A stretch of DNA of 64,000 nucleotides from Styela clava (Eukaryota), in contig NC_135251.1 in the NCBI RefSeq assembly GCF_964204865.1, positions 20,026,001 through 20,090,000 of the forward strand, in the 5' to 3' direction. Below the pieces are notes generated by a model. It was given only the letters and a program-made list of their open reading frames with translations, was not told the DNA's origin and did not search any database. A program made the position numbers and the translations under genes. Numbering within the stretch: the first letter of the stretch is position 1; every line of letters starts with the position of its first letter. Positions 7,112 through 37,600 of the stretch are shown one piece after another.

Positions 7112-7633
7112 TTAAACTAGCTCTTCTAAACAGAGGAAGCGAACGTTGAAATCACCGCACTTTTCGCCATTCCGTTGGTCGCTGTTGTAACACGCTAAAC
7201 CTTTTTCCGCGTCGAACGTTCGGAAGATTTGTCCTGTTGTGTATGCAGCGCTGCAAAAAGAGAGAAAATTTGACTGAACGATGTTTAGTAGCATAAAACG
7301 AGAGAGTGAAATTAGAAATAGGGCTAATGAGAGACATCAACTTAATACGAGAGAATATACGAGAGTTAAATGAGAGAGAAAATCATAACGAGAAATTTAC
7401 AGACAATAAATTCATATAAATTGGATAGATATAAAACCAAAGATTAAAAATAAATAACAAAGATTGTATAAAAAAAAATCAAAATATATACCTTCCGTTT
7501 CTAAGTCGCGCTTCAATAGACACGGGCCTGTCGCAAATTTTGTGGTCAAGCTTAAGTAATTCTAGTAATTCAAAATCCCCCCTATGGTCAGGGTCATCCC
7601 GATCAAACCACTCCGTCCAGACAGTTTTACAAG
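7112..7633 (-). CDS. C-terminal WxxW (mucin CysD/CILP-type) domain; exons 7633-7492 and 7250-7112 including the stop codon
   Basis: [19 protein letters not shown]...[11 protein letters not shown]...TGQ...GLACYNSDQ...[10 protein letters not shown]. Confidence 0.9.
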
Positions 7634-13600: not shown

Positions 13601-16600
13601 TATTAAAATAAAATAAAAATGATACATTGTCATTGCTATATTCATCACCACTCGCGAAACACATGATTTTTTCAAACAAAAGTCAGGGTGCCTCTTGTGT
13701 ATGAATAACATACCTCAGTAGGATATTTTGAATTTAGTACAAGTCTTTCAACAACCAAGATATATATATTTTCAATGGAAAATGCATTAAGACGATAATC
13801 ATATGATATACGAAGATGTCGATCGCTGGATAACGGCTTCGACCAGCATGAATGATTATAAAATTAATTATTCAGGTAAATAATTGCTTTTTATGTGGAA
13901 GGTTTTGTTAAGCTTCATTTCCTATGCTTACAATTTCTTTTCGTTTTCAACAGAGCAATCTAGTGGAGGTAATGAGACGGGTGGTCTGCATGTTTGTCCT
14001 CTTTGATCGAGAGCAAACGCGGCGACGTCATTGTTCAAAGTACCGTCGTCTAAGTTCAAGTCATCAATCGGATCTCCATTGAAATTACCACACAATCCTC
14101 TGACCTAAATGTAATCATGTTTTTATTGATGCAACATGACATGATGTATGTAAACTTGTCTTCAAATTAACATTAACGAAAAATTAAAAATTCTTTTTTC
14201 TTAAATTTAGATAGATGCTATAAATATGATAAATTTTTGTTTTCGCAATAGTGGTCCTCGTAACTAACACTATCATTTCCACGTGATATATTGATATTTG
14301 GATAAATATAGCATGTTATTCATTTTATATCTGGCAAAATAAGCAATATAGGACACTAGAAATGCCATATACAACGTTTGAATGTTTGCCGGTTGTAACT
14401 TTGCGTTTAGTATTTACTTTCAGTCTAGAATAGATATTTTTCAAATTGTGTCGAACGGTACTTTATTTCATTACTTTCAATTTGGGTCAATAAGTATTGT
14501 TATTGAGTTTATATCTATAAGATCTTCTTTTAGAATTGGACCTTGTGCGATTGTTTTTTTTGCATTCAAATAAATAATTCAATCAAACATTCTCTGGTGT
14601 GTCAAGAATACTTCTCTCTATCACAACCCAGATAAAAAGAACATAAACAAATCTTACTTTTCCTCCAAACCTCGATGGCAAGGTTACTCTCAAATTACTC
14701 CCATCAAAAGCTATTTCCAATCCAAAGAAAGTTTTCAAGACTGTAAACGTTCCTCTGCGATCCACAGTTATCATGCGATCCTCATCAGCGCTTCTCCAAT
14801 TGTAGACACTTCTTCCATCAACCTTTAACGTGTGTTTGAATATTGATAGATTAGAAAGGATTTTATCTAATTTTGTTGCTATTGTTAGGACTATCATGGG
14901 CATTGTAAAATTAGATATTTTTCAATGTCTAGTAATGTTGCGTATGTAAAAAATAATAAAGAAAATAACACAATTAAAATATTTGATTAAGCAAAATGAA
15001 TAATAAGCAGAAAAGCAAAGTAAACAAAAAGAGAGTAAATTATTGCGACATGTATGATAAAAGATTGAAAGTGTAACATCATCCTGTATGAGTATTTGAA
15101 TGGCCAGAGTTTGATGCTGATTTTCAATTCGACAAGCGGATAATGTATTTTTTTCTTCAAAATTTGAATTATATCAAAGAATCGTGTTTGTGTTTAAAGT
15201 GGGCGCGATGCCAAACGAGCTTTACTTGATTAAAATATCCAATTCTCAATGTAAGTTTCACCACTTGAAGAGATGAAAATGAGTGAAAAGTTAAATGACT
15301 GGATATTTCATGGAAATGAATTTTCGCCAATTTTTTTGCCAAATGTCGAAGAAGCGCAAGTCGAAAATGCTAGCACAATAATCATTTTTTTGAAAAATTA
15401 AGCAACACTGATTCCATGCTACATTTACCATGCATGTAAGATATAATTTCATTGCTGTGCCGATTGATAAAGCTTGTAATTCAAATCAAAATGAAACGTG
15501 CTCTAAGCAATTTGATAGCGCAAAAGGATAAATTAAAATGCATGGATGATTCGTGCTTTGCGTTTGTCTACCTTTGGTTTACGGCGAAGTCCTGCGAGTC
15601 GCAGAACAAAAGTTCATGTGAACTAGGCTTTCGACTTGGAAATGATGAAAATATGGAACAAAAAAGCATTAAACGTATTATACCCGTGCCTGTGCCTGTG
15701 TTTTTAGAAGCATTGATTTTCCAAGTCCTGGAAGTCGTAGACGAATATTCTTCAGTACAGTGAGTTTATCATTGTCAGATGACGGTTGGATGTTAGCCGT
15801 CAAAACGAATGATTCCAATCTACTACGGGGATTTCCACGTTCGAATTCTCTCTTCGCAATGACGTAATGACATTGAGTATTGAGGTCATAATTATTTCCG
15901 TCAAAGGTAGAAAAGTGAGTGCTTCCCCAAGCATGGCATGTAGATGTTTCTAAAAATTATTATACATCACATATCAGATTGAAATTGTATATTATAATGA
16001 CATTTTCCATCTGGTCCAAGTTTAATTTTTGTTTTAAAATTCCTAATAAAATAACCCTAAAAAGGATCAGGACGTTAAGTGGAAAGAAAGACGTTTTCAC
16101 AGATAAACGTCATTTGCAATAAAGTTTCATGTCATAATAATAAAGTAAGAACGTCAAAAATATAGTTAAAATGTCGCAATGTCATATTAAGTATTTTATT
16201 TACTTGAAATTGCAAATGCATTCACAACATTCCACTAATTTTTATCCGATTCATATGATAACCTGTTGGAAGCCTCGCTTCGTGATATTGAAGACTTCCC
16301 TATATTGCAGAGATTATCCGAAACTTACCGATTCGAATACAGTCCAATTTTCCAATTCCATTGATAGCGCATTCCTCTTCTCTACCGCATTTTGCAGCAT
16401 TGCATGTAACTATTCCAGCATTACATTCACACAGCGTCTTACACTCTTTAGTGTAAAATATGTCTCCGCTCTAAAAATAGTACAAAGAGGTCATATTAAA
16501 ATAGATTCATTATTAATACTCTATTTGAGCACAAAAAAGATAAAAATACATGGGTAAGGTATATTTTTCATATTTGTTTTCATGCCTTTTTCGCTTTAAA

Positions 16601-19600
16601 GAAGGTCCCATGCCAGAAATCGCTTGAATGAAAGAGACCACATGAGCTGACTGAATGTCGAATCTTTAATTTCAGCTTACCCAACTTCCCTAGTTGATAA
16701 ATTATAACTACCTTGTAATATCGCCCATCCTTAACACATCCACATTGGCTCACTGGAACGTATTCATCTCCAGAAAGAACAAATCCATCATCAGGGTGAC
16801 AACCTAAAAATGTTCAAAATAGTTACTGGCGATATACGAAATATCAATGAACAAAAAACAATTCATAGCAAAAATAATATCTAAAATATTTAATATGGTA
16901 TGTTTAGATCCATAAATACAATGATGCAATGATTCTATTTCATATACTATTCTATAACTCACCTTCAACGCAGTTATTTCCAATATCACTCAGTCTACAT
17001 TGTGAACCATCAAGATCATCACACGCAGGCTGGCATTGCATCATACAAGGTTCAAAGTGGCTGTTAGTCGGACAAGGCACATCAGCTAAATACAATTTTG
17101 TTTTGTTTATTACAAGCAATTATGAAAAATGTAAGTATGTATGAGAGTAATATATAAGAGAGGCGCTGATCAAATTCTAAGTTTAGCCGAATTCGAGAGA
17201 ATATTGTGAAAAACAAAGAAGTTTCAGAAAGTAATTCGAGAGAATGATGCAAAATAAATAACATATAGTCATACATTATTTTGAAAGAAGGGATTTACTG
17301 AATTGTGAACTAAACTAATAAGATTAATTATTATTCAGAAAGAAATATCCTCTCACTCAGGTTAGCTTCTTCTCTCCAATTCTTATCTAAATCTCCTCCT
17401 TCTTGTCTACAATCCTCAGTGTAGTCTGAAATCACTCTTTCTCGCATTTTTTCGTCACCTACGAAAGCGCACATGTCCAGCATGCAGTTAGCGTACACAG
17501 ATTCTGCATCAGCTAAACGTTTACAATTCTTCAGTGGACCATCAGGATTTATTAGCACGGAACAAGCTTGTTCAGCTTGGATCATCTCTTCCACTCCGCA
17601 CTCAAATACTGGACGTTCAACGAGAAAATCGGCCTGAGGGCTGGGACATCTAAAATAAGATTGAGGTTAGATAATATTATTGTTTGAACGCGGGCATGTG
17701 AATGAATACCGAAATTGTTATACCAGAACTTAAGTAAGTACTTTGTAATAAAATGCGTTTTACCACTAATTATTTATACACCTTAAACAGTTTTTAATTG
17801 TTTTCAACCTCAATACTACTTAAGACTGTTGCTAACTGAATAGCGACGAACTGTTGGGTTGCATATACATGGGTATCAATTATACTCACTCATCGTTATA
17901 ACCCTCTACTCTCCACGAATTAACAAACTCTTCTGGTTCTTCGAATACTTCTTCAGTAAAGCCATTTGTCAAATCGTCTGAAGGGTCGTCGTTGAAATTA
18001 CCACAAACACCTTCCACTTGTCCTCTCAAATTTCCCATTGCCGAGATTCTCAATCTGTAAAAAGGTTCATAATTCTAAATTTTGTAAAAGATGAATTGAT
18101 AAAGGATAGTTACTCAAAACAAATTTGGATTCCTCTAAATGGATTATTATACCACATTTTTAAGTTTCTCACCTGTCTGATCCATCCCATCTGACGTTAA
18201 GACCAAAGTCAAAATTGGCTGACATGTATCTTCCTATTTTCATAAGTTTCATTCCTGATTCAGATGTTCCAGTCTGTACGACTTCGCCATTGAGCTATGC
18301 AAACAAACAGTGAAGTTTAGTTTGTTGGGAGATAAACGAGAATAACTAATATACATAAACAGAATTTTATATGGTCTGATTTTATTAAATATTCCACCCC
18401 AGGATTGTATTTCTGAGATTTGTTCTTTTGTTTTTCCCTAACAAGAATCTGTACAATTAAACTATCTGGCGCAATCTAATGGATTTAAATGAGTGAAATT
18501 CGAAATACCTAAACTCTCACAACATAAATTAAAATGGTTGTGTTTGGGCCTTGATAAGGATCGAACCCGAATTCATTAGCTTGCGGAGTCAATATAGTTA
18601 GACTATTGTTCCTACCACAATGAGATATCAATATTGGGAATAGATTTTTCAATTCCCACTATCCTCTTGCATACCTCAACGACTGGGCCTTTAAACATTG
18701 ACAATCTTTGTCCACGATAATCTATATGAATTTCTTTCACGTTGGACACAGTAATGTTAGGCAAAGGTTGTTCGTTCACGGCAACAACGGTGAATGGGTC
18801 AATTGCAGAACTGACCTTTGACCTGTGATTGACAATACGATTAATTAATTTCAACAATAGTATTTAAATTGATTCACTACATCTTTAAATAAAATAGAAT
18901 TGTCACCTACCTGACCATTGTATAGGAGCAGATACCCTGTGAATCAAATTTCTTTCCATCGAACGATGTGTAATGAGGATCCGTTATAGCTTTGCAAGTA
19001 GCACGACGCTGAAACCAAAACATACTATTTCACAAAAACACCGTCAAAATGTTAGAAATTCATGATCAAGTAAAAATTGAAATGTAGTCTAAATAATCAA
19101 ATTTATACTGTTTCCAAACAATAAAATCCAAATTCTGTATAAATTATTTATATTCAGAAATATTATAAAAAAAAAAAAAGTTTTTTCAAGAATATAAATG
19201 TATAAAATATATATATGAGTTTAAATATGAATTACAACATTAATATTCCGCTTTTAAGTTCAACTTTTGCTTACTCTAGTGCCTGGCATGCATTGAAAAT
19301 ATCCTCCTGCAGCTCGGTTACAGCGTTCTGACAATAGACATCCATCGTCGACGTCCTTGCATTCAAAAATATTTTGACCCACACATTTACATTCTCTTGT
19401 GCAATCCTCATTTTCTTTGTAACTGAAGCCTTGGAAATGATAAAAACTTTTTAGTATTTGTTATCTAGTATTTGTTAATTGAAAAATAATTAGTTTTATC
19501 GGTGATATACACTAAGTACTGAGCTATATATCAAAATTTAGAAATGAGACTAGTACCTCTCGCGTAATAAACTCCATCAACCAGGCATCCACATTTTTCT

Positions 19601-22600
19601 ACGGGAACACATTTGCCAACAGAAAGGAAGAATCCGTCCAAACAATCGCAACCTAAAAATAAAAATGAAATCAATTAATGTTTTTGATTTTTTTCACCCA
19701 GAATAATCACTTGTTTCGTTTCTATTTTATCGCGTCAGATATTTACCTTCAACGCAGTGGTCTCCCAAAAGATATGGCAACTTCCTCTTACAAATCGATG
19801 CGTCGGGATCCCCACATGTAGGTTGACATTGATGCATACATCTCGAATATTTGCTGTTTGCTCCGCACTTTACAGCTAAAATCCAAAACATTGTAATGTT
19901 TAAATCAAAATAAAACGTAAGTTTATATATATATATATATATATATACATACATGCCGCGTAACGTTGATGAATACGTTATTTCAACTACAATATGTGCT
20001 CGTGATAGTATTAGCGACCATCGAACTTACGCATTTTTTCGTCCGACCTCCACGGATCAGGACCCTTTGAAAACTCGAGACAATCGTGTGTGTATGATGA
20101 CAAAACTCTATCTTTGTAGTTCATGTCTCCATCTGTTCTACATAAGTCGTTTACGCATGCCCTGTACGCTGGAGCTGGATCTACTACCCGGTGACACTTT
20201 GCAAACGGCCCTTCAGTATCCAAAACAATATTGCACTGATCCTGATAGTTGGAAAGTACATCAGGGGAATTGCAGTCATCAGGAACGTCATCAAGCTCGA
20301 CCACGCATCTGCAATATGGAATTGTAAACATTTATCAGTATTCAATAATGTGTCTATTTGTATTAGCATCAGGTAACATTTTTATGTCTAAATTAATTGA
20401 AGAATAAAAAAAAAAGCAGTAAACCAAAACGTGCCCAATAAAAAAACAAAGTCGTGTTCTCAAATCAAACAATTGAATGTAATTTTACTTAGGAAGGAAT
20501 ATAACATATGTTCGTTGTATACAAGAAATCTCTGAAGACTGATAAAGAAAACAGGACTCTTGCAGTGGACAATCTTCACTTACTTTTTTTCTGAATGTTC
20601 TTTGATTTCCCAGCCTTTTACGAAATCATTCATATCGTTGGTAATGAGGCCGTCTGGCATGGTGAAGTCATCGTCCATATCATCATTGTATCGACCACAC
20701 ATTCCTTCTACCTTGCCCTTGAGATCGTCCCATACGGTTACTCTGAGTCTGTGTTGAAAATCGAAGATTATTATATCAAATATTAAGTACATGTGCTGTT
20801 GACCTGGAAAAATTTGAAACATACCTGTCTTTTCCATCCCATCTGATTACCAATCCAAAGTCCCATTCAATAACTGTGAATAATCCAATCTTGCGGATAG
20901 TTGCACCCTGTATCGTAGAACCAGGATTGTACACCTTTCCATTGATCTGACGTAAAAAAATATAAAATGTTTATTATGAATAAAAGTATGCAACTCTTAA
21001 CAATGTGTGGTTTTATGATTGTTTGATGATGGCGGTTATCTAGACATAAGAAGCTCGACAGGTAACTTTTTTATCTGGACATTTAAAACATATATACTAG
21101 GCATTTGTGCGAATGCATTCATACAAATGAATAACATATCAAATTATAATCATAATCGCTTTTTACGTAAATTTCAATAGTTTGTTTCTTCAATATTAAT
21201 TTCGTTGTCTTTCCATGACTCTTCAAAGCAATGTCGTTGAAAAGTTTTCCTCGCTTTCACCTACGGAGCAATCGGCCCCCAATATGGAGTCAAGTCAAGT
21301 TTATTTTTTCTACCAGTAAATAGAAAAAACAGCACAGAAAATACGAAGTAAAATGAAAATTACACAGTTTTACTGGGAATTGATCAGTTCTCATTAAGTT
21401 CGATCCGTCGGTACTAATTAAGTAACAATATATTGTGTATTGAATTCCAAAAAGCGCCAGTGAGCAAATTGCATACCGTAACTCTCAAATTTCTGGAAAC
21501 TTTTAGTTTAAAATCGTCTCCAACTTCGACGATAATCTGTCTAACTGAAGATGTTGATTGTAACGAAGACGATCTTTCATTCGAAGCAGTAACTCGGAAA
21601 CGTGGAGCATCGCTTGATGGAATTGATCTGTTGAGAAACCAACGTCGCGAAATTAAAAACGCGAAGATGCAAAATAATAATGAATGAAACACAAATGAAA
21701 AGTCGATCCTCTAAAATATATTAGTTATCTGAGCATTCTCTCTGATTTACTCACAAAAACATCTCATTTAAATGACCTAGACATACATACAATATTATAT
21801 CAATAGAGCGATAGGAATATTTTTAAACATAAATAAAAACAATACTGACTGTGTCATAATGTAAGCACATGTTCCGGTAGAATCGAACGTCTTTCCATCA
21901 AACGTTGTGTAGTGAGGATCTGTGATAGCTTTGCATGTCGCCTTGTTCTGGAAAAATAATAATTTTACAATATTAATTGATTCTATAAGTTAATAATTAG
22001 CAATTATATCAGTCTTACTCGTATATGCGGTGTGCATTGATATCTTTCATTGACTTTTGTGCATCTCTCAGTTGTTCTACAAGGATCCGTTGGAAGGCAA
22101 ACTACGTCACCGGCGCCTACGCATTCACATACGATGTCGCATTTACTATTCAAATATCGGAAACCTAAATTCATTGAAAACTTCAGTATATAGTAGAACT
22201 GTAGTGGTTTATAGGGCTTGCACTATAATCAATTTTAAAAACTATTTTCATTTTTTCTCAAAATATATTGTGATTTCAATAAGAACCCCGTCAAACACTT
22301 ATATGCTGGTCGGAGAATTTTGTTGCCTTGATCGTTATTAACATTTTAAAAGGGAAATAACGCCTAACTTCTGAAAACAATCCAGTCCGACTTTAGCATG
22401 GTCGATTGTGTTGATTTGCTGTTGATACAAATGGAATCCAGTGACAGAATTTGATCAATAAAAAATTTTCGTCATTGTCTCAAAAAGTAGATCTTGATTA
22501 TTTGGTGTTTTTATTAAATAGTTATAGTTTTGATGATTACTTCGGTGGAATTTTGATTGGACAAGTGATCACATTGCTCAATTGTTTGGTCTACTTCAGA

Positions 22601-25600
22601 CATACTAATGTTTTTAAAATTAGGATTTTTCGCATACCTTGTTCTCTGTATTTGCCATCAATGAGACAACCACATTCTTCGAGAGTGACACATTTACTGC
22701 CTGATAAGACAAGTCCAGGATTGCAAGCACAACCTAAAATTTGAAAGAAAAAAAAACATAAATAAGTAAATCCAATGCATAAGATAAATTTATTATATAT
22801 TTGAAAGCCCATTTATTTTCAATTCATCTGAACTAAGATGCAAACACGTATAATACATTTATATTCTTTGCTATGATTAACTTACCGGACACGGGTTGGT
22901 CCCCTAGTGAATTGTTAGCTTTGCAAATTGAAGCATCAGGATCGTCGCATGTTGGTTGACATTGCTCCATAGGTACCATGGAAATCATTTTGTCGGGACA
23001 TTCTTCAGCTAGAAAATTTAAATATAGCTTAAAATAAAGAACTATTCGCAGAAGACGAAATTAGGTCAACAAATAACCCATATCGACAAGTGTTTCACTA
23101 CAACAAGACGGAAATCCAAGATTTACTGATAGGATGCTTCGTTAACAAGTTCATTAAAAGTGGGTGATATTTCAACTTGTTCGATGTTTTTCCTCAAAAT
23201 AACTTTCAAGTAAAATACAATAATGCTGTTGCAGATTAATTTACACAAATTTGTTTTTTCGCAACGAAACGAGAATTTGGACTTTATTAAATTGGTGACG
23301 ACAAAATGAACTAATATTATTCAAATCTTACTTATATTAGGGGTGTTTGGTCTTTCCTCCGTCTCAAGACAATCTTCGGTGTATTCACTAGCAATTCGTT
23401 CATAGTGGCCATCATTTTTTCCCAAGGCACACAAGTCAAATATACAATCATTGTAGAAAGATTCCGGCGCAACACGGTCATGACACGCCTTCCAACTTCC
23501 ATCGGGATTGACAAGCTGCGAACATATTTTATTGTATTCACTAAACCGTTCGCAATTGTCCACTACTGAAGAGTTTAAAGTGCCAGGAGGTGGATCCAAG
23601 AAGCAGCTAAAATTTACAATTGACATGTTAGTTCGGCATGTGAAATATGTACAGGTATTTATGTTTTCTTGAAGCAACAATAAACTTTGTAATTAACAGT
23701 ATAGTATACTTTTCGACCGAATATATTATAAACGCTTGTCATAAATAGGCTTTAAAACTGAAAACAAATATTAGTATTTGTCACTTTCTAACAAAAATCT
23801 GGCATAACATTGGACGTTTTTCCTTTTGTTTATTCAACGCAGTATTTTTTTTACATAAATTAATTTTCCCCAACAATTGAGTGTCTTTATCAGTGTTGAC
23901 TTTATCAGTTTATCACTCATAAACCCTTCGATATTTTGATTTACTGCTTACCTTTCTTCACTAAATCTGGCATAACATTGGATGTTTTTGCTTTTGTTTA
24001 TTTAACGCAGTATTTTGTTTACATAAATTAATTTTCCCCAACAATTGAGTGTCTTTATCAGTGTTGACTTTATCAGTTTATCACTAACAAACCCTTCGAT
24101 ATTTTGATTTACTGCTTACCTTTCTTCACTAAATTCGTTAATTTTCCAATGTCTTACGAATTTATCAGCTTCTGGTTCTAGCTTTCCCCGCGGTGTTGTA
24201 AAATCATTCTCAGGATTATCATCGAAATCTCCACACAAACCTTCGACTTTGTTCTTCAACTTAGCCCACGCCATCACACGTAATCTGTCATTGACAAAAT
24301 CGTTCATTGAGACTACCAAACGCGTTCAATTTCTGAGTACAGAAACTAGACAGCAGTAAGAAACGAATAATAATAATAAAAGTGTCATTCATGCTGAACG
24401 AATCGAATCAGATTGTGTAGAAATGATATTTTAAAATACAATACAAGTTTATGGAACTTCTGTTACACGTGTACCTGAATGAATCTCATACAAGGCATCT
24501 AAGAGCACTCTCCTGATATGAAACATGCATAGCAATAACCTGGTAATGAAACAAAATAGTTGAAAAAAAAGTTTACCTATCGATACCATCCCATCTGACT
24601 ACGAGACCAAAATCAAACTCAGCTACTGTGAATTTACCAACTTTACGAATTTGTACATTTCGAACTTTTGTGCCGGGTAGAACAACATCTCCGTTTATCT
24701 ATAAAATAGAGCCCTCCATTAGTGAAAGTAATCGCACATTGTGAAGCCAGAAATATGATTCAAAAAGTTGACCAAATAAGTCTCAAACAGTAGGTCATTG
24801 ATCAGATATAATCCCACCTTGACCACAGGACCAGCAGAAAAAGATACTCTGAAATCTCTGCCGACATCAATATGAACTTCCTTAACGTGAGATACAATTC
24901 GGTTTTCAGGAGGGGCCTCGTTCACAGCCACGACTCTAAATTTTTCTACGTCAGCGCCTTGCTTCGATCTGTCACAGAAAGTTCAAATTAATATTTCTCT
25001 GAATTTCAATCTTTTTTAATACAATAGATATATTTATATGTTGTGCATGTGATCATACCTAACCATTATGTAGGCACATGTCCCCATAGAATCAAATTTG
25101 ACTCCGTCGAAGGTCTGGTAATGAGGATCAGTCACTGCTTTGCAAGTTGCTCGTCTCTAAAGTGGAAATAAAAAGAATATGAAATAGACTATATACGGGA
25201 ATTGAGTCTGTATTGAACCCCTGGTTAAACTAACTCGATGTGTAAAACCACTCACTCTGATATGTTTCACGCAAGCCCTTGCACCTTCGTCGTTGAATCT
25301 ACAACGCTGACCTTTCGGACATTTGTCACGTGTTGTACAGACCAGTTCTCCTTCCCCGAGGCAAGTACATTGTACTGTGCAATTGTCATTATTGTATGTG
25401 AACCCTGCAACATATGAGGTGGTGTTACATAAACTAGTTGAATGAGAACGAAAAAATTGTGAAGAGCAAAGACTTCGTGTTATAAAAAAAATAGATAAAA
25501 TGGTTCGTACCTTTCTCGATATACCGTCCATCAACTTCGCATCCGCATTCTGATTCTGATACGCATACATCTCCAGATAGTAAGTATCCATCATCACAAA

Positions 25601-28600
25601 CACAAGCTGAAATTTTTTAAATCAGATATAAAATCATGAAAACAAGCGTTTAAATAAATTGAACCTAGAATATAAAATTGAAATACTTATAGAAAGTAAA
25701 GATCATGGATACTTACTATCAACACATGCAGTTGATACTGCGCCACTTGTAATACATTTCTCTCCATGCTTATCATTGCAAGTAGGTTGACATGGTGATA
25801 CACAGTTTTCAAAATGTGAATTATCCGAGCACAAAGCGGCTGAAAAATAATAAAAATGGCTAAAATCTTACAATTATTCTCAAAAATGAATTAATTGACA
25901 ACATTTATAAATTAAGTCATAAATCCTGACCAATCAACTTAAATCTGTATGATATCCCCATAAGACTCTTTTGTAGCAAGAGTGATCGTAATTTAGTTAA
26001 AAACGATTCAAATACCTTCTTCTTCTGGCGTCCTGAAATCCAAATTTCCGGGTGGAACTTCGTCTGAAACAGCTTCTTCTCTGCAATCTTCAGTATAAGA
26101 TGAAATGATTCTCTCTCTCATTGCTGGGTCACCCTTTGTAGCACACATATCAAAGACACAATCGTTGAATGTTGAATTAGGGCTTGTGATGTCGAAGCAA
26201 TTTCGAAGCGGACTGTCTGGATCGATCAACAGTTGACAAGACCGTCTGTATTCTTCTAATTGTTCGTGGGATCCACAGAAGTGATCTGGAGTATCGGTGG
26301 TTGGATCTTCGCACCTGTGATATTGGTGGAATATGGAATATGGATTGTCATTCAGCATAACAAAATGAGTTAAGTAGCCGTCATGTCAAATTAAATAAAC
26401 AATAAATTAAAAATTCTTAATATGTACAATAAACAGATTACATTAGCGATTCTAAGATGAATTTACTCTAATAACGATATAAACACTTACCCAGTAGTCT
26501 CGTATCCATCCACTCTCCAGCTATTTACAAATTCGTCGATTTCAGTCACCAAAGTACCGTCAGGAGTCATAAAATCGTTGCTTTGATCGTCGTTAAAATC
26601 GCCACATACACCTTCCATTGTTCCTTTCAAGCTTGCCCATGCCATAATACGTAATCTACAAATAGTGAGTATATTGAATAAAAAATAATTAAGGTATGCA
26701 TTATATTTGCATTCGTCCTTGCGTGGCGTGTGTGGTGGAAACTGTTCGTAACCTGGGCACATAGAACATAACACAATCAACAGCAACAAAAAAACTTAGC
26801 TCCACATATCCAAATTTGACGAAAGTGTATTAATTTCAGAAGAAACTTAAAAAACTTATATTATGCAAAACGATAATACAGTATTTTCATATACATATCC
26901 ACTAACATCGGAACAAGAAAACCAAATAGTGATTCTAGATAGTCAAGATGAATAAAAAAGTGCGAGGAGTTCAATTTGGAAATTTTGTAATCATCTCGGC
27001 AAAATAAACTTCTTGGAAATAAAGTGTCGCACTTTTAGATATCTTATACATTTTTTGTGGTTACAAAAATTTTCGCGTTATTTTCAAAAAATTTCAATTT
27101 TACTGTTTAAGTGTACCTGTCAATGCCATCCCATTTCACTACAAGATCGAAGGGAAATTTGGCAACAAAAAATCTTCCGATTCTTATAAATTCAATATCG
27201 TGAAGTGTTGTTCCCGATAAAACACGTTCTCCGTTTACCTACAATAATTAAAAAAGAATTAACAATCGTGTTCAACACTGGGACAAGTTTCTAGGTATTA
27301 TCAAAAGATTCAAAAATGAGAACGCATTATATTTTATTATTCTATTTTTGTTTGTTCCAATACGCAGGCAGTCACTAATAAGGTATCTGCGGCGCTTGGA
27401 GCAAACAAGTTTTGGGTTTGCATAATCTACCAAATTTCTTCCATCGCTGACAAGATTGGAAGGCATAAGTCTAAACCACTGTAAGCATAACTTATAAATA
27501 AGACTAAAATGCTGAAGTTTAGCTTATTGCCAAAACAAAGCTAAAAAATCGCTCATAAAAATTGTTCAGTTTATCTCAAAATTCATAATTCACCAAATTT
27601 TAAGAAGCAAACATAGAAAAGTAGTTGAAAGAGAGAACATTTCGCACACAAAAAAACGACTTTGTTATATTTGGATCAAATAGATTATTTTTATGCATAT
27701 TATTGGTCTGGAAAAAATTTGAAAAATCAAAAAAAACTTAAAATAGTATTTTCAATAATGAAAAAAAATTTTTGCATTTCGTTCCAAGCATACAAAAAAT
27801 CTATAGTATCCATTTTGTTAAAAAGACGACAACACTTACAGTAACTACAGGGCCTGCTGTAAATCTAATAGTGATGTCATCTCCCACGTAAATGAAGACC
27901 TCTTTGACACTCGATACAGTTTCGTTCACGTTTTTTGGCTTCTCGTTGACCGCTACGATACGGAATGGCGTCACACCTGAATCCTCTTTGGTCCTGTGAC
28001 GAAATCATTTATTATTGATTAAGTTAATTTAGGTAATTAACATTAAAAGTACGTACGTCATTGTGAATGTCGGACAATATTGCTTCCAAATCCTTTTTTT
28101 GTTATTTTGAATGAAAAACTTTAGCGTTGGCAGGGAAAAACAGGAATTTTGTTATAGCAGCGTGGTTAGAATCAATAATTAAATGTATTAGATTGTTTTT
28201 CATGATAAAATACCATCTTACTTTGCCATTACGTATGCACATAATCCCATGGAATCGAATCGCACTCCATCAAAAGTCATATAATGAGGATCAGTAACTG
28301 CTTTGCAAGTTGCTCGTCTCTGAAATAATAATTAATTGTATTACAGCACTTTGATAAATAAACTGATATACTTGTATAGAATTCAAATTCTAAAAAATTA
28401 ATATACGGGTTCTATCTAACTATTGGTAGAAAAAAATTATAATTTTCTACAAATCAAGTTTCTTTTGTGTTTTATAATCTTTCTTTCATGAGTATAAAAG
28501 AAACAATAAAAAGACTAACGACTAGGTGAAAATTGTGATGCTTTTTAAAATGAATTCGTTAAACGCGTCATGCCAAACGTCATACAAATCAAACTTATTT

Positions 28601-31600
28601 CTATTGAATGGAAAAATACGCAAATGTCAAACTTTCCCGTTTTTCGGAGAACAGAAATTCGAACTCAAATAACCTATATAAATCATGAAAACGCCCAATA
28701 GGCAAAATTATAGACAAACTGACGCCACATCTGTCAAAATGTGGCGACTTTTTGACTATTACTTTATAATACCTTCCAGAAAAAAACATTCGAGGATAAA
28801 TCGTAAGTAATCCTCGAATTAAAATAAACATAAAAACAAGACAATGCTTGAATGTAAATCAACAGTTTTAATCCGACAAAACGGATTACATTGCGGGTGA
28901 AGCTTCTGGGATTATTAGTTAGATAACCTGTGAGATGTAGCAACTTGAACATTGCCTGCTAGTCTTGGTATGGATAATGGCTTGTAAATCCTTGAAACTA
29001 CATGAGCTAATTAATTGGCTTTTATCTAATTTCGGAAGCTATGGACAACAGAATGATGACCTCATGTTGTTGGTCATTAATTCTCCTACGCGTAAGAATG
29101 TAGCGCAAACACTGAAACCGGGGAGTTGTCGTCCATGTCACAACATTTGCTTAGCATATAGTTTGTCAAAGATAATATTTATTCCTTATAATTTTTGAAC
29201 TGATAAGAATACCAATAGTTTGCGTACTAACTTTTATCGTATTTTGTAGAGTTAGGAGAACTGATTTACTACCAAAAATAGGTTTTTAGATTAATGTTGG
29301 AAATATATCCGTTTTGGGGCTTAGACGATATGCACCTTTTTTCATCGTGACATCAATTTTATCACAACTAAAACGTTGAATCTAAACAGTAAATTCAATA
29401 TACAGTCCAGTCCAAGGTTAAAGGTTTTTGATTGCGTAACCAATGACACATGTTTTGATAAAATGAAAAATATGGATAGCCAACATATTGTTAACCTGTT
29501 TTGAATTTTGCATATCCAGTAAATATATATGAAAAATAAAATGTCATTTCATACCCTGACATGATCTATGCAACCTCTGACCCCTTCATCGTTAACTCTA
29601 CAACGTTGTCCTACAGGACATCCATCACGTGATGTGCATACCAATTCTCCTTCTCCAAGACAAGAACATTCATTGGTACAGTTGCGATTGAAATATGTGA
29701 ATCCTGTTTACAATTTCGATGTAAATAATAGTTGATAAAGCCAACTTGGCTACTAACTAAACTAATTATATTTCCATACGGCAAGATTTCGAAAGTGTAT
29801 CCAGTTCACTCCTTTATACCATTTAATCTATATTACGCCAATTAGGCTTCAGTTGAAAACCGCTTTTGAAGTGTCTCTTTCAATGTTTATACCAATGCAA
29901 AAAAGCAAAATAGAAATTCTCCATTCATTCTCAAATTTTTGGAACAATTTTACATCAAAATGAGCCAGATTTATTTTGGCAACTTTGTCGCTGCGTGTAA
30001 TACGGAAATGTGTAAACAAAATTAGACGCGAAAAACATATTTTGTTAGCAATGATTTAAAAGGAAAAACAACGTCTCACATACATATTACAATATTTTAT
30101 AAATATTTCATATTTTCTGTTAATAATGATTAATTTAAGATGTTACCTCTCATTTTATCATTATGAATGCTTATATTATTTTGTTACATGCGCCGATTTC
30201 ACATTATTTTTTTTATAAAATTACTGGCAATGCATATAATGTAAATATTTTATGGTATGAAATGCTTGAAATATAATGTTTAATTTCTTAGCTACAAAAT
30301 ATATTTTGTTTCGTATTTATAATTTTTATTACCATACAAATATTTTCAATTTACAGTTATTTGACCCCGATACAAGTATGACAATGCATGATTGCATATA
30401 AAAATGCACACCAACAAAATGAACCCTAAAAAGCAATATACCTTTTTCTACGTAACGTCCTTCTATTTCGCATCCGCATTCAGATTCTGCTATGCAAGCA
30501 TCACCAGATAAAACATATCCTTCGTCACAAACACAAGCTATAGAAAAAGTGAAGTAAACAGTTTTGTTACGGTAATATTGACTAAATCATAACTAAATAT
30601 GTATAAAAGTAGCAAGCAAATGTCTTAGACATATCGTTAGGGGTTGATTAAATTTTTAAAGAAATCTCACCGTCAACGCATGGAGTTGATAAAGAATCGC
30701 TTGCAAGACATTTTTCACCATCTTTGTCCGTGCATGTTGCTTGACATGGGGAGGTACAGCTTTCAAAATGAGAATTTTCTCTACACAAAGCAGCTGTGAA
30801 CAAAGAGATAAGTTTGTATACATAGGAAAAACAAGATATACAGTGACAGAAAACTTTGTGTCATACATAAATACTACTATGTACAATTTTTATGTCATAC
30901 CATGAATTAACACAAAAAGTAAATAACTTAGATTACCATAGTATCGTTTTCCATAAAAAAAATACTTGAAAATTATTAATATGCATATTAAATATTAGGA
31001 AAATAAAACATTTTGTATTTGTTTATTACAATAAAAAATTAAATAAATTTTCAACTATTGGAATAATTTCATATATATACATATTCCAATTTTTCACATT
31101 CTCATGTTAACAATAGCATACGCCAGTACCTTCTTCTTCCGGTGTTCTAAAATTTAAATCTCCAGGAGGGACTTCGTCAGACACTGCATCTTCTCTACAA
31201 TCTTCAGTATAAGAAGAAATAATTCTTTCTCTTATTGCTGGGTCACCATCGGTAGCACACATGTCGAAAACGCAATCGTTGTAAGACGAATTGGGATTTC
31301 GAATTTCGAAACAGTTAACCAAAGGGCTGTCAGGATCGATCAGTACTTTACATTGCTCGCGATACTCTTGTAACTGATCATCAGATCCACAGAAGTGATC
31401 AGGCTGCGATGGAAGATCTTCACATCTGTAATGTAAATTCAAAAATAAATAATGTCGGAAGTTTTTTATATGAAATAAATTAGACGGGAGTTGTTTCAGA
31501 CCGTCTTTGTCTATTTTCTGGTCGTTATTAGATCACCCAGCAATTCAGGATTCGGGTGGACAATGCATTACGGAAATGATTTTGAAGTAAGAACTGCGTT

Positions 31601-34600
31601 GTCCAATGTCAATGTGTGAACCAGATCGCAAGAGGATTTTGGATATTCTCTGTTCAATTTGACACCTCCTGTCCCTTTTCGAGCATTACAGTGTATACTA
31701 ACACAAATTGTAATATTTATAACAGCAAAAATATAACATACCCTTCCGTTTGATATCCAGGTTCAATCCAGCTGTTAACAAATTCATCAATCTCCGTTAC
31801 AATTGTACCCTCAGGAGTCATAAAATCGTTGCTCTGATCGTCGTTGAAATCACCACACAGTCCTTCCATCGTTCCTTTTAATCTCGCCCAAGCCATGATT
31901 CTCAACCTTTGAAGTGGAATAAAAAACATCTAATTTTCTAGAACAAGAGAATCTATCATTTTCTGGGGCGAAAGAATCTCTCATATTTAGATGCGAGAGA
32001 AACTCTCGTATTTGGAAATTTCGTATTTTCGATTGGATCAGATAAAAATCTATTTTCTTACCTGTCTATTCCGTCCCATCTTATGACAAGTCCAAACGGA
32101 AATTCCACCACAAAGAATCTACCAACCATTCTAAACTCGATACCATTTAGAGTTGTCCCAGCTAATACTCGCTCGCTGTTAACCTTGAAAATAATGGCAT
32201 AAGAATTGAGAAAATGAATAAATTATTCGTAATAATTTCAGTCGGACATTAAAAAATTAAGCAATATTGTTCTGATAGCTTGAGATTATTATACGATTTC
32301 TTGTTATCACACTGCTATAGATGTCATTCAATGCATCTAACAATGTTTCTACTGTAGACAGAAATCGATATTTTATCTGATATGCAGAGTTGTTAGCAAA
32401 GTATGAATGCATTGAACCTCATTTACAACAACAGATATTGTTTTGGGTTATGTATTAGTGCTATCGCTTTATCACAATCATATATTAAAAATTATGAAAA
32501 AAAGTGTATGTCAAAGCAATGAGAAAAACTTACCGTTACGTTTGGTCCAGCTGTAAATCTAATAACTATGTCATCGCCAATGTACGCATATACTTCTCTC
32601 ACACTGGAAACGGTTTCGTTGGCGTTTCTTGGTTTTTCATTTACGGCTACTATCCGGAAGGGCGTCACATCCGCGCCTACTTTGCTCCTGAAATAAGTAA
32701 TAAAACCACGATCAAATCATTGGACAAATTTCAACTTATTCTAGAACTAATGAGAAAATAATCTCAAGAACTCAAAACATTCTTACTTCGCCATGACGTA
32801 AGCACACAATCCCATAGAATCGAAATTTATTCCATCAAAAGTCAAATAATGTGGATCGGTGACCGCTTTGCATGTTGCTCGTCTCTGCAATAACAATAAT
32901 TAATTTACTGGAAAGAACAATTAGAGCAATTTGGATTAAACATGGTAGGCAAGTTATTGTTATAGTGTATATTATATGACACAATACTACACTATTCTAT
33001 ACATATTAAAGTATACCCTTGGTCTTGTGAAACATTCAAAATAGCCATCTCCTCTTTGTTGGCATCTGTCTCGATTAAGTTGACATCCGCCAGGAGTAGG
33101 CCCGCAGTTCAAATTGTCTGGTCCTTGGCAAACGCAAGTTTGAGTACAATCAGCAATAGCGAATGTAAAGCCTGTTGGAAATGATAAAAAATATGTTAAT
33201 AATGACATTTACCACTATATACAACATTTCTGGTAACAAGGCTAAAGCGTTGGAATTACGTCACAAATATGATGGCCAAAATAACAAATAATCGTATTTT
33301 AATATTAAAAATTTATATTACCAAACAAAAGTTTACAATTTTATCAGTTCGCTATAAATACTATGAAATTTTCAGTAGTTTTTGTTTACGGTATAAAATA
33401 GAATACAATAGCGTTTTTGTTTTAATATACCAACTTGAAATAGGTTAGCTTGAAACTGATGAAGTAAATATCTTAGAATACAAAAGTTGATGTTGCCGAA
33501 CTCTACCTTTCTTTTCATAGCGACCATTAACATTACATCCACAATCTTCAGGTTTTACGCATTCATTACCAGACAAAAGTAATCCATCGGCGCAGACACA
33601 ACCTTAAAATAAAAAAGCAAGTGTTTTATTCATATTACATTGCCTAAAGAAAGCAGATTCAATCAACTGACCTAAGTAAAAAAAGCAATTCAAACTGATC
33701 AGCATAAATATTTATATGTATATTTTGGAAATGCTCTGCTAGTTGCAATAAACCGACATTAAGTTGCCAATTGGTTGATTAACATCAAACTGATTCGACA
33801 AGTATGAATCTTTACCTTCAACACAAGTTTGTCCAAGTCTGTTAGGTTTCTTTTCTCTGCATAGTGAACCAGTAGGATCAGAACAAGTCGGTTGGCATTG
33901 CTCCATGCAGCTATTGAACGTACCATCGATACAAGTTTGAGCTGAAATTGAGTTAATTAAAAAATATAACTTGTGTTTTCATAATGACTTTTGCAGTTGA
34001 GTTTTGTGCCTGGTGATATTCATATTTCCATTCTGCAGTTATTTCATTTCTGCATGTATAATGGACTGTGAATTAAAACATTATTTACAAAAACTGTGAA
34101 ACTCGCGATATCAAGAATTTGACCCAGAGATGATATTGCAAACATGTTTATGGCCAATAAGATTCAATAAAATTAATGCTATATTAATATATTTTAACGT
34201 ACGCATCCCCTCAGTATCTCTCCATTCTTGTGGTCTTCCACTTTCTTCCAAGCAATCGTGAGTGTAAGATGCAAATGTTCTTTCTTTTATCGTGTTATTT
34301 CCATTATAAGCGCAAAGATCGTAAACGCAATCCCTTGCAGCTTTGACTGGATCTACATATTGGTGACAGGAAGCGAACGACCCTTTTGGATCAGTTAAAG
34401 CCCTGCATTCTTCTTGGTACCAAGCAAGTGAAATAGTATCGGTGCATGGTGGCTGCGGAATCTCAGTGCCGGGATGGTCGAAACATCTGTCGACCAAAAG
34501 CGAAATGTTATATAAGTGCTTGCAAATATGCCAAATGAAAACAAGCAGAATAAAGACCAGGAATCACAAAAACGATACGTATGCTTGGCTTTGTTTAAAA

Positions 34601-37600
34601 CAAACTTGATTTGATTATTATATATTGAACAGAGATTGAACAATTTGATAATTTCAAAACCACCATTTTATATGAAATTTCGTATTCAATTTTGAAATAG
34701 AAATATGCATACTAACACCTATACACAAATTTTCAAATACCAAAACTTTACGAAATGAACGTAGACTCAAAAAAAATCTTATTCACCCTTCTGTTCCGTA
34801 TCCCTCGATTCTCCAGCTTTCAGCAAACGATCCGGGATCAGGTAGATTTTCTTCTGTTGGTCTGACGGCAAAATCATTGTCAGGATTGTCGTCAAAATCG
34901 CCACACAAACCTTCAACCATATAACGAAGCGGAGACCAAGCAGTGATACGAAGTCTGATAAGAATTAATGTAATATTCATGGTTCAAAATAGGTTTCAGT
35001 AATTTACTATATTCATGGGATGCTGGAAATATTTGAATTTAGTTGATTTATTTGTTCAAAATTTATGATTCAAGCTAAACTGCTAAGTTATTATATCTGT
35101 CTTGCAATAAGCTCTTTTGTTTGCTTTATTACAATCACTGATTTTGTCCCTCGTAATTTTAGCTATAGTAATACGAAGAATTTTGGATAACTTTTGGGTT
35201 AAAATTTTGATCTTTAACATATTTTTTTCAAGCCGTATAATAAAAATAGTATTACCTATCCACACCGTCCCATCTGACCACAATTCCGAAATGAAAATCG
35301 GCTACGACAAATTGTCCAACTCTTCTAACATCAACACCATGTAAACTGCTTCCGGGGTTAATGACTTTGTCGTCAAGCTACGCAATAAAACAATGAATTC
35401 GTACAAATTACTTGATCTAATTTCTGAAATTAGATGAATGGAGTTGCATTCGATCTGGTGCAACTCATCAATCATCTCGCCCATGGCTTAAGTAATTGGT
35501 TATTTCATGATACTAAATTTCCCGATGCTTGACAGTTTGTGAAATTCAGCTGACCAATAGTATGGAGACTCGATCAAGTTGGTTCATTACGTCTCGTACA
35601 ACATATGTTGATTGAATTTTAAAAATTTTAAAACTGAATCGCTCTCATGATGAATCGATTAGTATAAGAACAGCTTACAAAAAGCATATAATAAATAGGT
35701 ACTTTATACTCGATGATTTGGTAGCAAACAATATACTTACAATTACTATTGGCCCTCTCAAGAACGTCAAAGTATGTCCGTCGCCAAAGTGAACGTGAAC
35801 TTCTTTCACGTGTGTTGCATTTGCGTTTACTGTGGATTGTTCATTCACTGAGATCACAGTGAACGCTGTTGCTTTGGTTGCGTTTCGTTTTGACCTAAAT
35901 TCGAATAGTTGGATGAGTTTGTACAAAAACTTTACTTTCATATTTTATGTTATAACAATAGGAGAAGCCATGCAGAAGGGGTAATTTGAACGATCGGAAC
36001 CAGCACCACACTCGAGCAGAATGCAACGGGACAATGCTATTCGATTGCAATGTTTTTAAAATCAGAAAATCTGACGTCAGATATATTAGAAAGTGATCAA
36101 TAAGTAATCAAATCAGTTAACGAGAAATGATGTTGTGTGCAACAACATGAATACTTTCTTACCTGACCATAACGTACGCGCATGTTCCCATTGAATCAAA
36201 TTTAGTCCCGTCGAATGTTTGATAATGGGGATCAGTCACTGCCTTGCACGTTGCACGATTCTACAAACAGATTAGATATAATTAATATTTAGTTTATTAT
36301 TTGCTATTCAATGCAAAGATACAAGCCACTTGGTTTCCTGGATGCGGCATGCAGTGAAAATTTTATTAAAACATGGATTTATATATACCTACCAAATAAT
36401 TTAATCAAGTATATAACATTGGGTGGTTTATATTAAATTTGTTGAATATTTACGACCCTGAGGCTAGAATATTATAAAAATGAATATTCGGTAGTCGCGT
36501 TATCAATCTCCATCTAAACAAAAAAAATTCCGTATCAAACTATACCTGGTATCTGAATAAACAGATAAAGACAGTAACACCGTCATGTAAATGCAAAATT
36601 TCTTGGTAATTTCACCAAACAGTAAACAAATCAAAATTAAACTGCGGATGACAAGCGGTTTTGTGCACGTTGACTGGATAATCTCAGTAATCAAAAGTTT
36701 TGTCATAATATACCTGTATAATTGAATTATAAGTTCTTACCCTCAACTTTTCGATACAACGATGAAATCCATCAGTTCCTTTCGTACAATTAGCGCGACG
36801 ACTGCATGGATCTACGTCTTTGCAGCCTTCACCACATATACATTGTCTTTCGCAGCCTTCTAGTCTGTATGTGAATCCTGGAACGATGTAGAAAAGGTTG
36901 AAATGCTAAATTCGTTTATTATTCAGAAAGTTGTACGTTGAGATCAAGATTTTATTGCTTGGTGACTATTAGTGCTCTTTTTTGGACTTGCAAAGGTTTT
37001 CCAAATTTTCAAAATACGTTTTTATATCGATTATTTTTTTGGTGCAACGAAGAATCAGAGACACAAATTCTTTTCGACATTGATACACTCTGACGAAATT
37101 TGAAATAACGCTGCGTCATCTACCATTTCTTTTAACACACAAAATCCAAGATTTTACACCGATATCAAAAATTAAATCCCAAGTATGTCAGCATGTCACG
37201 TTTTTTTTTTTTATAGTTGCATGGTACATTATTAGTCAGTGTTTTAGACCCCAATTATATATTTCGATGACAAGAAACCTTGTTACCTAAATGAGTTACA
37301 ATACAATCTTAATCACATCTCATTAATGATTGAAAGTGTCATAATATAAAAAGATATGACCTTTATAAACTAGAGTCAAATAGCAGTAATTGAACAATAG
37401 ATTGACCCTTCTATCTACTTTATAAATGTCGATGTGATTTTTTATAATACGAAATTATCAAACTCATTTGTATTGATCTGAACCCCTTCAAAGTCCTGAT
37501 TTTGATAAAGACCTGGCGACTAAAACTCGAAACAAACACGTGGTAGTGCTTCGATTCCATACAAAAAAAAAATTGTGGTGAATATTCTATAAACGCAGCA

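What the first reader, a model, noticed from the sequence alone, without database searches (positions are those of the whole stretch)
18973..36236. Six TDPH motifs in place of the GDPH autocleavage site
Seen: assemblies 2-7 all read CKA(V/I)TDPHY (36225-36236, 32849-32860, 28284-28295, 25121-25132, 21912-21923, 18973-18984) using varied synonymous codons, which implies selection. Assemblies 1, 8 and 9 lack Asp-Pro (GGSH, GSTH, GNGM). Known: GD/PH in FCGBP, MUC2, MUC5AC and RGM self-cleaves through an Asp anhydride. Inter-alpha-inhibitor heavy chains cleave at xD/PH and esterify the Asp to a glycan; as I recall, ITIH1 has TDPH. Inference: the central repeats may be serial reactive cross-linkers for polysaccharide or protein, while the terminal repeats are structural.
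Basis: partly seen in the sequence, partly recalled or inferred. Interest (0 to 1): 0.7.

Follow-up and report, generated by a model that had tools for sequence, protein, structure and literature searches.

The report
Sea squirt FCGBP-like protein, TDPH variant
A large, spliced sea-squirt gene encodes a likely secreted protein with nine mucin-type D assemblies, six of which carry Thr instead of the usual Gly before the Asp-Pro-His site; these sites likely still cut themselves as a maturation step, with the pieces likely held by a disulfide rather than cross-linked to sugars.

Summary
Observation confirmed. The six TDPH motifs lie in one minus-strand, 83-exon, spliced gene (7113-56355). It encodes 4133 aa, identical to a Styela clava protein named 'IgGFc-binding protein-like': signal peptide, SibA-like N-terminus, nine VWD-C8-TIL-E assemblies, EGF and WxxW domains. 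TDPH sits in register with FCGBP's GDPH and is rare (3 of 518 xDPH sites in homologues). It is under purifying selection: synonymous sites are saturated while the exon is 77% identical in protein. The six are related repeats, not six independent events, and the closest Ciona assembly has GDPH, so Thr is not conserved there although Asp-Pro-His is. The cross-linker reading is weak. All six repeats keep the cysteine pair that tethers strand 1 after cleavage, as in FCGBP, whose anhydride was found hydrolysed by water; inter-alpha-inhibitor chains lack that cysteine. Best reading: FCGBP-like self-cleavage that stabilises a secreted protein (about 50%). Main rival: Thr blocks the cis Gly-Asp geometry and the site stays uncut (about 25%). 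Cleavage is untested. It is a modest natural test of whether Gly is needed. The scan's earlier notes hold GDPH cases but no TDPH.

The parts
7113..56355 (-). Whole coding span: 83 exons, 4133 aa; identical to P0206, named 'IgGFc-binding protein-like isoform X1 [Styela clava]'
   Evidence: Gene model; splice joints in RNA-type contigs; 0 differences from P0206
56188..56355 (-). First coding exon: ATG, hydrophobic N-terminal segment (likely signal peptide), start of the N-terminal domain
   Evidence: the only strongly hydrophobic 19-residue windows start at residues 5-12
42737..52292 (-). Rest of the N-terminal region (about aa 57-396): SibA / integrin-beta-like type, not the FCGBP N-domain
   Evidence: Weak PF24907 hit (E 0.009, under cut-off), no PF17517; 32-34% identical to lamprey proteins, E 1e-51 to 1e-57; the lamprey region's best Atlas cluster is 'integrin beta-like protein C', score 0.95
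36741..41879 (-). D assembly 1 (GGSH at 41845-41856, no Asp-Pro)
36225..36236 (-). TDPH, assembly 2 (Asp797)
32849..32860 (-). TDPH, assembly 3 (Asp1198)
   Evidence: joints on both sides of the exon
28284..28295 (-). TDPH, assembly 4 (Asp1599); assemblies 3 and 4 are the one recent duplicate pair (76% identical)
25121..25132 (-). TDPH, assembly 5 (Asp2001)
21912..21923 (-). TDPH, assembly 6 (Asp2393)
18973..18984 (-). TDPH, assembly 7 (Asp2791)
16329..36260 (-). Assemblies 2-7: each eight exons with the same phases (VWD, C8, TIL, E/TILa), 36-47% identical apart from the 3/4 pair; strand-1 Cys and GxCG Cys kept in all
12034..15949 (-). D assembly 8 (GSTH at 15915-15926)
8839..11771 (-). D assembly 9 (GNGM at 11736-11747); same sub-type clade as assemblies 2-7
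8468..8584 (-). EGF-like domain exon
   Evidence: PF14670 E 4e-12
7113..7633 (-). C-terminal WxxW domain (two exons) and stop; no transmembrane segment, no cystine knot found
   Evidence: PF13330 E 2.5e-19

Best explanation
The gene encodes a likely secreted, FCGBP-like protein whose six central D assemblies carry TDPH at the GDPH position, and these sites likely self-cleave between Asp and Pro during secretion, with water likely resolving the anhydride and a predicted disulfide holding the pieces together. Shown: gene, transcript, domain order, motif position, selection on the motif, retained cysteines. Inferred: one Gly-to-Thr change in an ancestral assembly of a tunicate sub-type was spread by tandem duplication of an eight-exon unit. 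The Asp side chain attacks its own carbonyl, helped by the His, as in FCGBP. Strand 1 stays tied to the domain by the strand-1 Cys/GxCG Cys bond, so the protein stays in one piece until reduced. The likely gain is a tighter, protease-resistant domain in a mucus or matrix protein. Predicted reduced fragments without glycan: about 83, five of 44-45, and 150 kDa.
For: Register with FCGBP D1-D5 GDPH. Asp, Pro and His, the residues whose mutation (Asp, His) stops FCGBP cleavage in PMC10880436, are invariant in six copies whose synonymous sites are saturated, whereas assemblies 1, 8 and 9 have lost Asp-Pro. The position of the helper Gln4094 holds Met x4, Thr, Gln; Met (238) and Gln (244) dominate among 526 GDPH domains, and FCGBP D1, shown cleaved in PMC8267560, has Met there. 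Cys at offsets 0 and +135-137 in all six, against 0 and +139 in FCGBP D1 (C472-C611 predicted by modelling in PMC8267560). The closest Ciona assembly has GDPH, so the sub-type has the canonical site. Non-Gly sites persist elsewhere: 15 NDPH sites in one recurring context, found in proteins named from sharks and a gecko. ITIH1/2 are processed without being GDPH proteins (PMC7170535, PMC11670116, PMC10880436 read together). FCGBP's anhydride was found hydrolysed (PMC8267560) and cleavage stabilises FCGBP D10 (PMC10880436).
Against: No cleavage data for this protein. In FCGBP D10 the Gly-Asp bond is cis and, in simulation, cis geometry brings the Asp into attack distance (PMC10880436); a beta-branched Thr should disfavour this (general knowledge). 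Gly is kept in 499 of 518 xDPH sites; only 19 of 69 non-Gly domains keep DPH, against 499 of 647 Gly domains (a related, profile-selected sample). MUC2's GDPH stayed uncut in a recombinant host (PMC10880436), so even the full motif does not guarantee cutting. A single origin of Thr is not shown: the six form a clade with only 56/58 support in one tree and are unresolved in the other.
Confidence: 0.5

Rival explanations
1. Thr blocks or greatly slows cleavage; TDPH is kept as a structural turn and the six repeats stay uncut.
For: Cis Gly-Asp bond in cleaved FCGBP D10 and its role in simulation (PMC10880436). Gly in 499 of 518 xDPH sites; loss of Gly usually goes with loss of DPH (19 of 69 keep it). 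The whole first exon is conserved, not just the motif (20 of 33 columns), and 10 other columns are also invariant in the six but different in Ciona.
Against: Domains without the site drift at Asp and Pro while mostly keeping Gly (145 of 191); here the reverse pattern has been held through synonymous saturation. ITIH1/2 are processed without being GDPH proteins (papers as above).
Confidence: 0.25
2. One reading: each TD/PH cut leaves a reactive Asp anhydride that is esterified or amidated to polysaccharide or protein, making the protein a serial cross-linker of mucus or tunic.
For: ITIH precedent for ester linkage to chondroitin sulfate (PMC7170535, PMC8267560). The Thr is Styela-specific yet invariant in six old repeats, with an invariant Lys in strand 1 (Lys in 13 of 518 other DPH domains). 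Position F4093 of FCGBP is Ser here and in only 1 of 526 other GDPH domains, so the pocket is remodelled.
Against: The tethering cysteines are kept, the FCGBP arrangement, in which the ends are predicted to be buried and the anhydride was found hydrolysed with no partner detected (PMC8267560). ITIH and the sponge wreath domain, for which glycan attachment is known or proposed, lack this cysteine (PMC11670116). The Phe-to-Ser change is shared with the Ciona GDPH domain, so it is not tied to Thr. No acceptor or tissue is known.
Confidence: 0.12
3. The protein is a polyprotein: basic linkers just before strand 1 are cut by proprotein convertases, releasing single D assemblies, with or without the Asp-Pro cut.
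For: Five of six TDPH assemblies (and assembly 9) have 3-4 Arg/Lys in the five positions 7 to 3 before the first Cys, against 2 of 741 other xDPH sites (duplicates not removed).
Against: Only one linker (assembly 3) fits R-x-R/K-R; assemblies 2 and 6 have no dibasic pair there; the Ciona homologue has no basic linker. The linkers may simply balance the acidic assemblies (net -12 to -36).
Confidence: 0.1

Closest known systems
FCGBP (IgGFc-binding protein)
   Same: Secreted-type chain of tandem VWD-C8-TIL-E assemblies, most with xDPH between strands 1 and 2, some without; same strand-1 tethering cysteines; best PDB matches are FCGBP (8rde, 8r0t); about 25-30% identity over 3,500+ residues to vertebrate FCGBP-like proteins.
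   Different: No PF17517 IgGFc-binding N-domain but a SibA-like N-terminus; EGF and WxxW at the C terminus; Thr in place of Gly; Ser at the F4093 position; basic linkers.
Ciona intestinalis H2Y2J7 (P0161), VWFD domain-containing protein
   Same: Its last assembly is the best match to assemblies 2-7 (37-43% identity), in a starred clade with them (100/97; 100/100); the assembly before it pairs with assembly 1 (98/94; long branches, so less sure), the same order as here.
   Different: It has GDPH at both positions and no basic linker; the model ends inside that assembly, so the number of Ciona repeats is unknown.
Lamprey 'IgGFc-binding protein-like' proteins (P0059 cluster)
   Same: Same N-terminal domain (32-34% identity) followed by D assemblies.
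   Different: Three assemblies, all GDPH, and a ZP domain.
Inter-alpha-inhibitor heavy chains (ITIH1-3)
   Same: [quoted passage not shown]
   Different: They lack the tethering cysteine, so the C-terminal domain leaves and the Asp is esterified to glycan; one site, not tandem D assemblies. TDPH in ITIH1 is recalled, not checked.
Zonadhesin, alpha-tectorin, gel-forming mucins
   Same: Tandem D assemblies; WxxW domain shared with mucins.
   Different: No MAM, NIDO, ZP or cystine-knot hit, no long Pro/Thr/Ser tract and no C-terminal transmembrane segment.

Membership tests
VWD / D-assembly proteins | VWD followed by C8, TIL and E/TILa domains | tested here: met
   Pfam on P0206: 9 VWD, 8 C8, 9 TIL, 6 TILa stretches at E<=0.05; 26-28 Cys per assembly
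Asp-Pro autocleaving VWD domains | Asp-Pro-His in the strand 1-2 turn | tested here: met
   In register with FCGBP GDPH; invariant in assemblies 2-7
Asp-Pro autocleaving VWD domains | Gly before the Asp (GDPH; cis Gly-Asp bond in FCGBP D10) | tested here: not met
   Thr in all six; Thr in 3 of 518 other xDPH sites
Asp-Pro autocleaving VWD domains | Helper position (FCGBP Q4094) compatible with cleavage | tested here: met
   Met x4, Gln, Thr; Met or Gln in 482 of 526 GDPH domains; Thr there is rare (2 of 526)
Asp-Pro autocleaving VWD domains | Actual cleavage between Asp and Pro | not testable with these tools
   Needs protein chemistry
FCGBP proper | N-terminal IgGFc-binding domain (PF17517) | tested here: not met
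   No hit in P0206; E 9e-67 in the orangutan FCGBP control P0219
FCGBP proper | Cysteine pair tethering strand 1 after cleavage | tested here: met
   Cys at offsets 0 and +135-137 in all six; the bond itself is inferred from FCGBP (PMC8267560)
ITIH-type glycan cross-linkers | No tethering cysteine, so the C-terminal domain is released | tested here: not met
   Cysteine present; feature as stated in PMC11670116
ITIH-type glycan cross-linkers | Ester bond from the terminal Asp to a glycan | not testable with these tools
   Needs protein chemistry
Gel-forming mucins | Long Pro/Thr/Ser domain and C-terminal cystine knot | tested here: not met
   Richest 60-residue window has 24 S/T/P; no cystine-knot hit
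Zonadhesin / alpha-tectorin | MAM domains and transmembrane segment, or NIDO and ZP domains | tested here: not met
   No such Pfam hits; no internal or C-terminal hydrophobic segment among the top windows

The most novel reading that the evidence does not exclude
In the Styela lineage six D assemblies were jointly remodelled around the cleavage site (Thr for Gly, invariant strand-1 Lys, Ser for Phe, basic linkers) so that the Asp anhydride is captured by sulfated polysaccharide or protein instead of water, turning an FCGBP-like chain into a six-site covalent cross-linker of mucus net or tunic, possibly after convertase cutting into modules.
Probability: 0.1. Interest if true: 0.7.

Novelty: new variant of a known kind. 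Interest (0 to 1): 0.27.

Why it matters
The chemistry of GDPH self-cleavage is only partly understood: a 2024 structure found a cis Gly-Asp bond and left open whether it is needed, and Gly was not among the residues mutated in the sections read (PMC10880436). A natural protein with six selected Thr variants, beside a Ciona counterpart with Gly, is a ready pair for that test. If the repeats cut, Gly is dispensable in true VWD domains and motif searches for GDPH undercount cleavable sites (19 of 518 xDPH sites here are non-Gly). If they cross-link, it would be a disulfide-tethered VWD doing what was looked for and not found in FCGBP. As it stands the protein is an already annotated member of a large family and the variant is a small, untested change.

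Tried and rejected
Single-sequence AlphaFold of assembly 2 VWD-C8: mean pLDDT 35, unusable; no fold search was run and no structural claim rests on it. Recent gene conversion as the cause of the shared motif: rejected, four-fold sites in that exon are at random agreement. Genome-wide TDPH habit: of 36 matches in the own genome, 30 loci were fetched; 6 are this gene, and of the other 24, 19 read GDPH, 5 lack Asp-Pro and none reads TDPH; 6 were not read. Orthologues with six TDPH: none among the best 150 of 1024 hits in the 50% library, nor in searches limited to 71-2000, 175-2000 and 3010-5000 residues; proteins of 2000-3010 residues were not covered by the word-index searches, and no closer ascidian relative turned up, so when Thr arose is open. 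Literature: TDPH + von Willebrand, 0 papers; Styela clava + IgGFc-binding, 0; Ciona + FCGBP + chitin, 0; ITIH site sequence not found (one review was not held). Most subscription papers are not in the library, and sequence alignments in figures cannot be read. No run was on record as RNA (no RNA holder listed); the RNA nature of X1, X2, X3 and X5 rests on their spliced contigs; contigs give no level or tissue. Apparent base differences at 28257-28281, 31160-31251 and 31798-31861 and the 'goes back' joints are best read as paralogous exons cross-mapping, not editing or rearrangement. Sixteen flanking ORFs had no Pfam hit. Earlier scan notes: nothing near, nothing by sequence, three GDPH notes from other genomes that did not change the reading.
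Full report
Observation. All four Thr codons are used. A TDPH(Y/F) codon pattern is at chance level genome-wide, 52 matches against 60 for the reversed control, so what counts is the in-frame, same-position repetition.

The gene. The window lies in a 377-Mb eukaryotic genome. Contigs of four runs with guessed RNA status join exons across GT-AG introns, and one 11,384-nt contig runs from 9945 to beyond 47157. A gene finder trained on those exons plus manual correction gave 83 exons from 56355 to 7113, all introns GT-AG, with one open frame of 4133 aa. The model agreed with the contig's coordinates at 12 of 13 anchors and was 1 base off at the last before four boundary fixes; the anchors were not recomputed. 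It is identical at all 4133 residues to P0206, named by its source 'IgGFc-binding protein-like isoform X1 [Styela clava]'. Other loci of the genome match Styela clava proteins at 97-100%, so the organism is very likely this ascidian. Domain order: hydrophobic N-terminal segment; a roughly 365-residue region with a weak SibA/integrin-beta-like hit (PF24907, E 0.009, under cut-off), 32-34% identical to lamprey proteins; nine VWD-C8-TIL-E assemblies; EGF; WxxW. There is no PF17517 domain, no Pro/Thr/Ser tract, no cystine-knot hit and no later hydrophobic segment. It works like FCGBP in layout but fails FCGBP's N-domain test.

How rare is TDPH. A profile of the six exons found 1024 proteins at E<=0.001; in the best 150 there were 640 domain hits (63 unreadable by my pattern), with 430 xDPH sites: G 396, N 22, D 6, T 3, S, V and A one each. 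Among 935 full-length assemblies from 255 stored proteins, 716 remained after dropping this protein, duplicates and non-canonical spacing; 518 had DPH, with G 499, N 15, T 3, S 1. The Thr cases are single assemblies in a lamprey and a Clavelina protein (two Clavelina records), apart on the tree; one search also read one in a sea cucumber protein. The sample is related and profile-selected. Of 24 other loci read from the own genome, 19 have GDPH and none TDPH. So Thr is rare, has arisen several times, and non-Gly sites make up 4-8% of xDPH sites. No paper held TDPH with von Willebrand.

History and selection. The best match to assemblies 2-7 is the last assembly of Ciona H2Y2J7 (37-43% identity; other proteins score clearly lower), and it reads GDPH. 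With the motif masked, the six, assembly 9 and two Ciona assemblies form a starred clade (100/97 in a 57-row tree; 100/100 in a 23-row tree). The Ciona assembly before it pairs with assembly 1, matching the order here, though long branches meet there. Inside the clade only the 3/4 pair is resolved; the six are one clade at 56/58 in one tree and unresolved in the other, so one origin of Thr is neither shown nor rejected. The repeats are old: four-fold sites in the motif exon agree in 50 of 154 comparisons (random 0.30), yet 20 of 33 columns are invariant. This is purifying selection, not recent conversion. Thr is one of 78 invariant columns out of 380 and one of 11 that are invariant here but differ in Ciona, so it is constrained but not unique.

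Mechanism. From PMC10880436 (read: abstract, introduction, results, discussion, start of methods; parts 1-4 of 7): Asp and His are required, Gln4094 helps, the Gly-Asp bond is cis in cleaved FCGBP D10 and favours attack in simulation, cleavage stabilises the domain, MUC2's GDPH can stay uncut, and ITIH3, 5 and 6 are the ITIHs named as having GDPH. From PMC8267560 (passages and section 8): all FCGBP GDPH sites are cut in the ER, fragments are held by one disulfide (C472-C611 by modelling), the ends are predicted buried, the D1 anhydride was hydrolysed and no partner was found. From PMC11670116 (passages and a supplement search): ITIH1-3/5/6 share the Asp-Pro motif, and ITIH and the sponge wreath domain lack the tethering cysteine, which allows release and glycan attachment. 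From PMC7170535 (passages): heavy chains 1 and 2 are ester-linked by their C termini and made with C-terminal pro-domains. Together these imply that non-Gly sites can be processed; the exact TDPH of ITIH1 is recalled only. In the Styela repeats Asp, Pro and His are invariant, the helper position is Met, Gln or Thr (Met in cleaved FCGBP D1), and both tethering cysteines are present. Domains that have lost Asp-Pro mostly keep Gly (145 of 191), the reverse of this case, which suggests the Asp-Pro-His is still in use. Against this, only 19 of 69 non-Gly domains keep DPH, and Thr should make a cis bond harder. I put cleavage at about two in three, and cleavage with hydrolysis and disulfide tethering at about one half.

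The cross-linker idea. It needs an exposed anhydride. The retained cysteines place these repeats with FCGBP, where cross-linking was looked for and not found, not with ITIH. What keeps the idea alive is local remodelling: an invariant strand-1 Lys (13 of 518 elsewhere), Ser for the near-universal Phe next to the helper residue (1 of 526 elsewhere, the Ciona domain), and basic linkers before strand 1 in five of six repeats (2 of 741 elsewhere). The linkers lie at the far end of strand 1 from the turn (inference from the sequence), and only one fits a furin consensus. The split into 'reactive centre, structural ends' is also nothing special, since FCGBP and its relatives mix sites with and without the motif.

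Verdict. A real, selected, rare motif variant in an already annotated FCGBP-like tunicate protein: new variant of a known kind. Interest 0.27; the value is as a natural test of the Gly requirement. Figures and their alignments could not be read and may hold the ITIH1 site or earlier remarks on non-Gly sites.

Noticed in passing
window 42737-56355 (-), aa 33-396: A SibA / integrin-beta-like N-terminal domain sits in front of D assemblies; the same fusion occurs in lamprey proteins (three GDPH assemblies plus ZP), and the domain's nearest Atlas clusters are mostly rotifer. It takes the place of FCGBP's N-domain.
   Followed up: partly
junctions before assemblies 2-7 and 9 (e.g. 33017-33030 / 32875-32884): Basic linkers (3-4 Arg/Lys in five positions) straddle the phase-0 intron before strand 1; 2 of 741 other xDPH sites have this. 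Possible convertase sites or polyanion-binding patches.
   Followed up: partly
motif exons of assemblies 2-7: FDS(M/T/Q)G in place of the usual FDF(Q/M)G next to the cleavage site; shared only with the Ciona counterpart among 526 GDPH domains.
   Followed up: partly
stored proteins P0013, P0016, P0185, P0188, P0214 and others: An NDPH site in a recurring C-R-V-H context in zonadhesin/FCGBP-like proteins named from sharks and a gecko: another long-kept non-Gly variant.
   Followed up: no
window about 39960-40310: A high-copy repeat inside an intron (summed contig depth about 10,900 against about 55 nearby in run X6); no internal direct or inverted repeat of 14 bases or more.
   Followed up: partly
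window 33017-33171 and 7492-7633 (-): Two RGD tripeptides, at aa 1176 (E domain of assembly 2) and aa 4058 (WxxW domain); may be chance.
   Followed up: no
G000:C16:19.68-19.78 Mb (L014, L019-L024) and C2:12.18-12.21 Mb (L007, L008, L010, L030): Other large tandem D-assembly genes in the same genome with canonical GDPH.
   Followed up: no
window 8079-8216 (-): A 46-codon exon between EGF and WxxW with one Cys and no Pfam hit.
   Followed up: no
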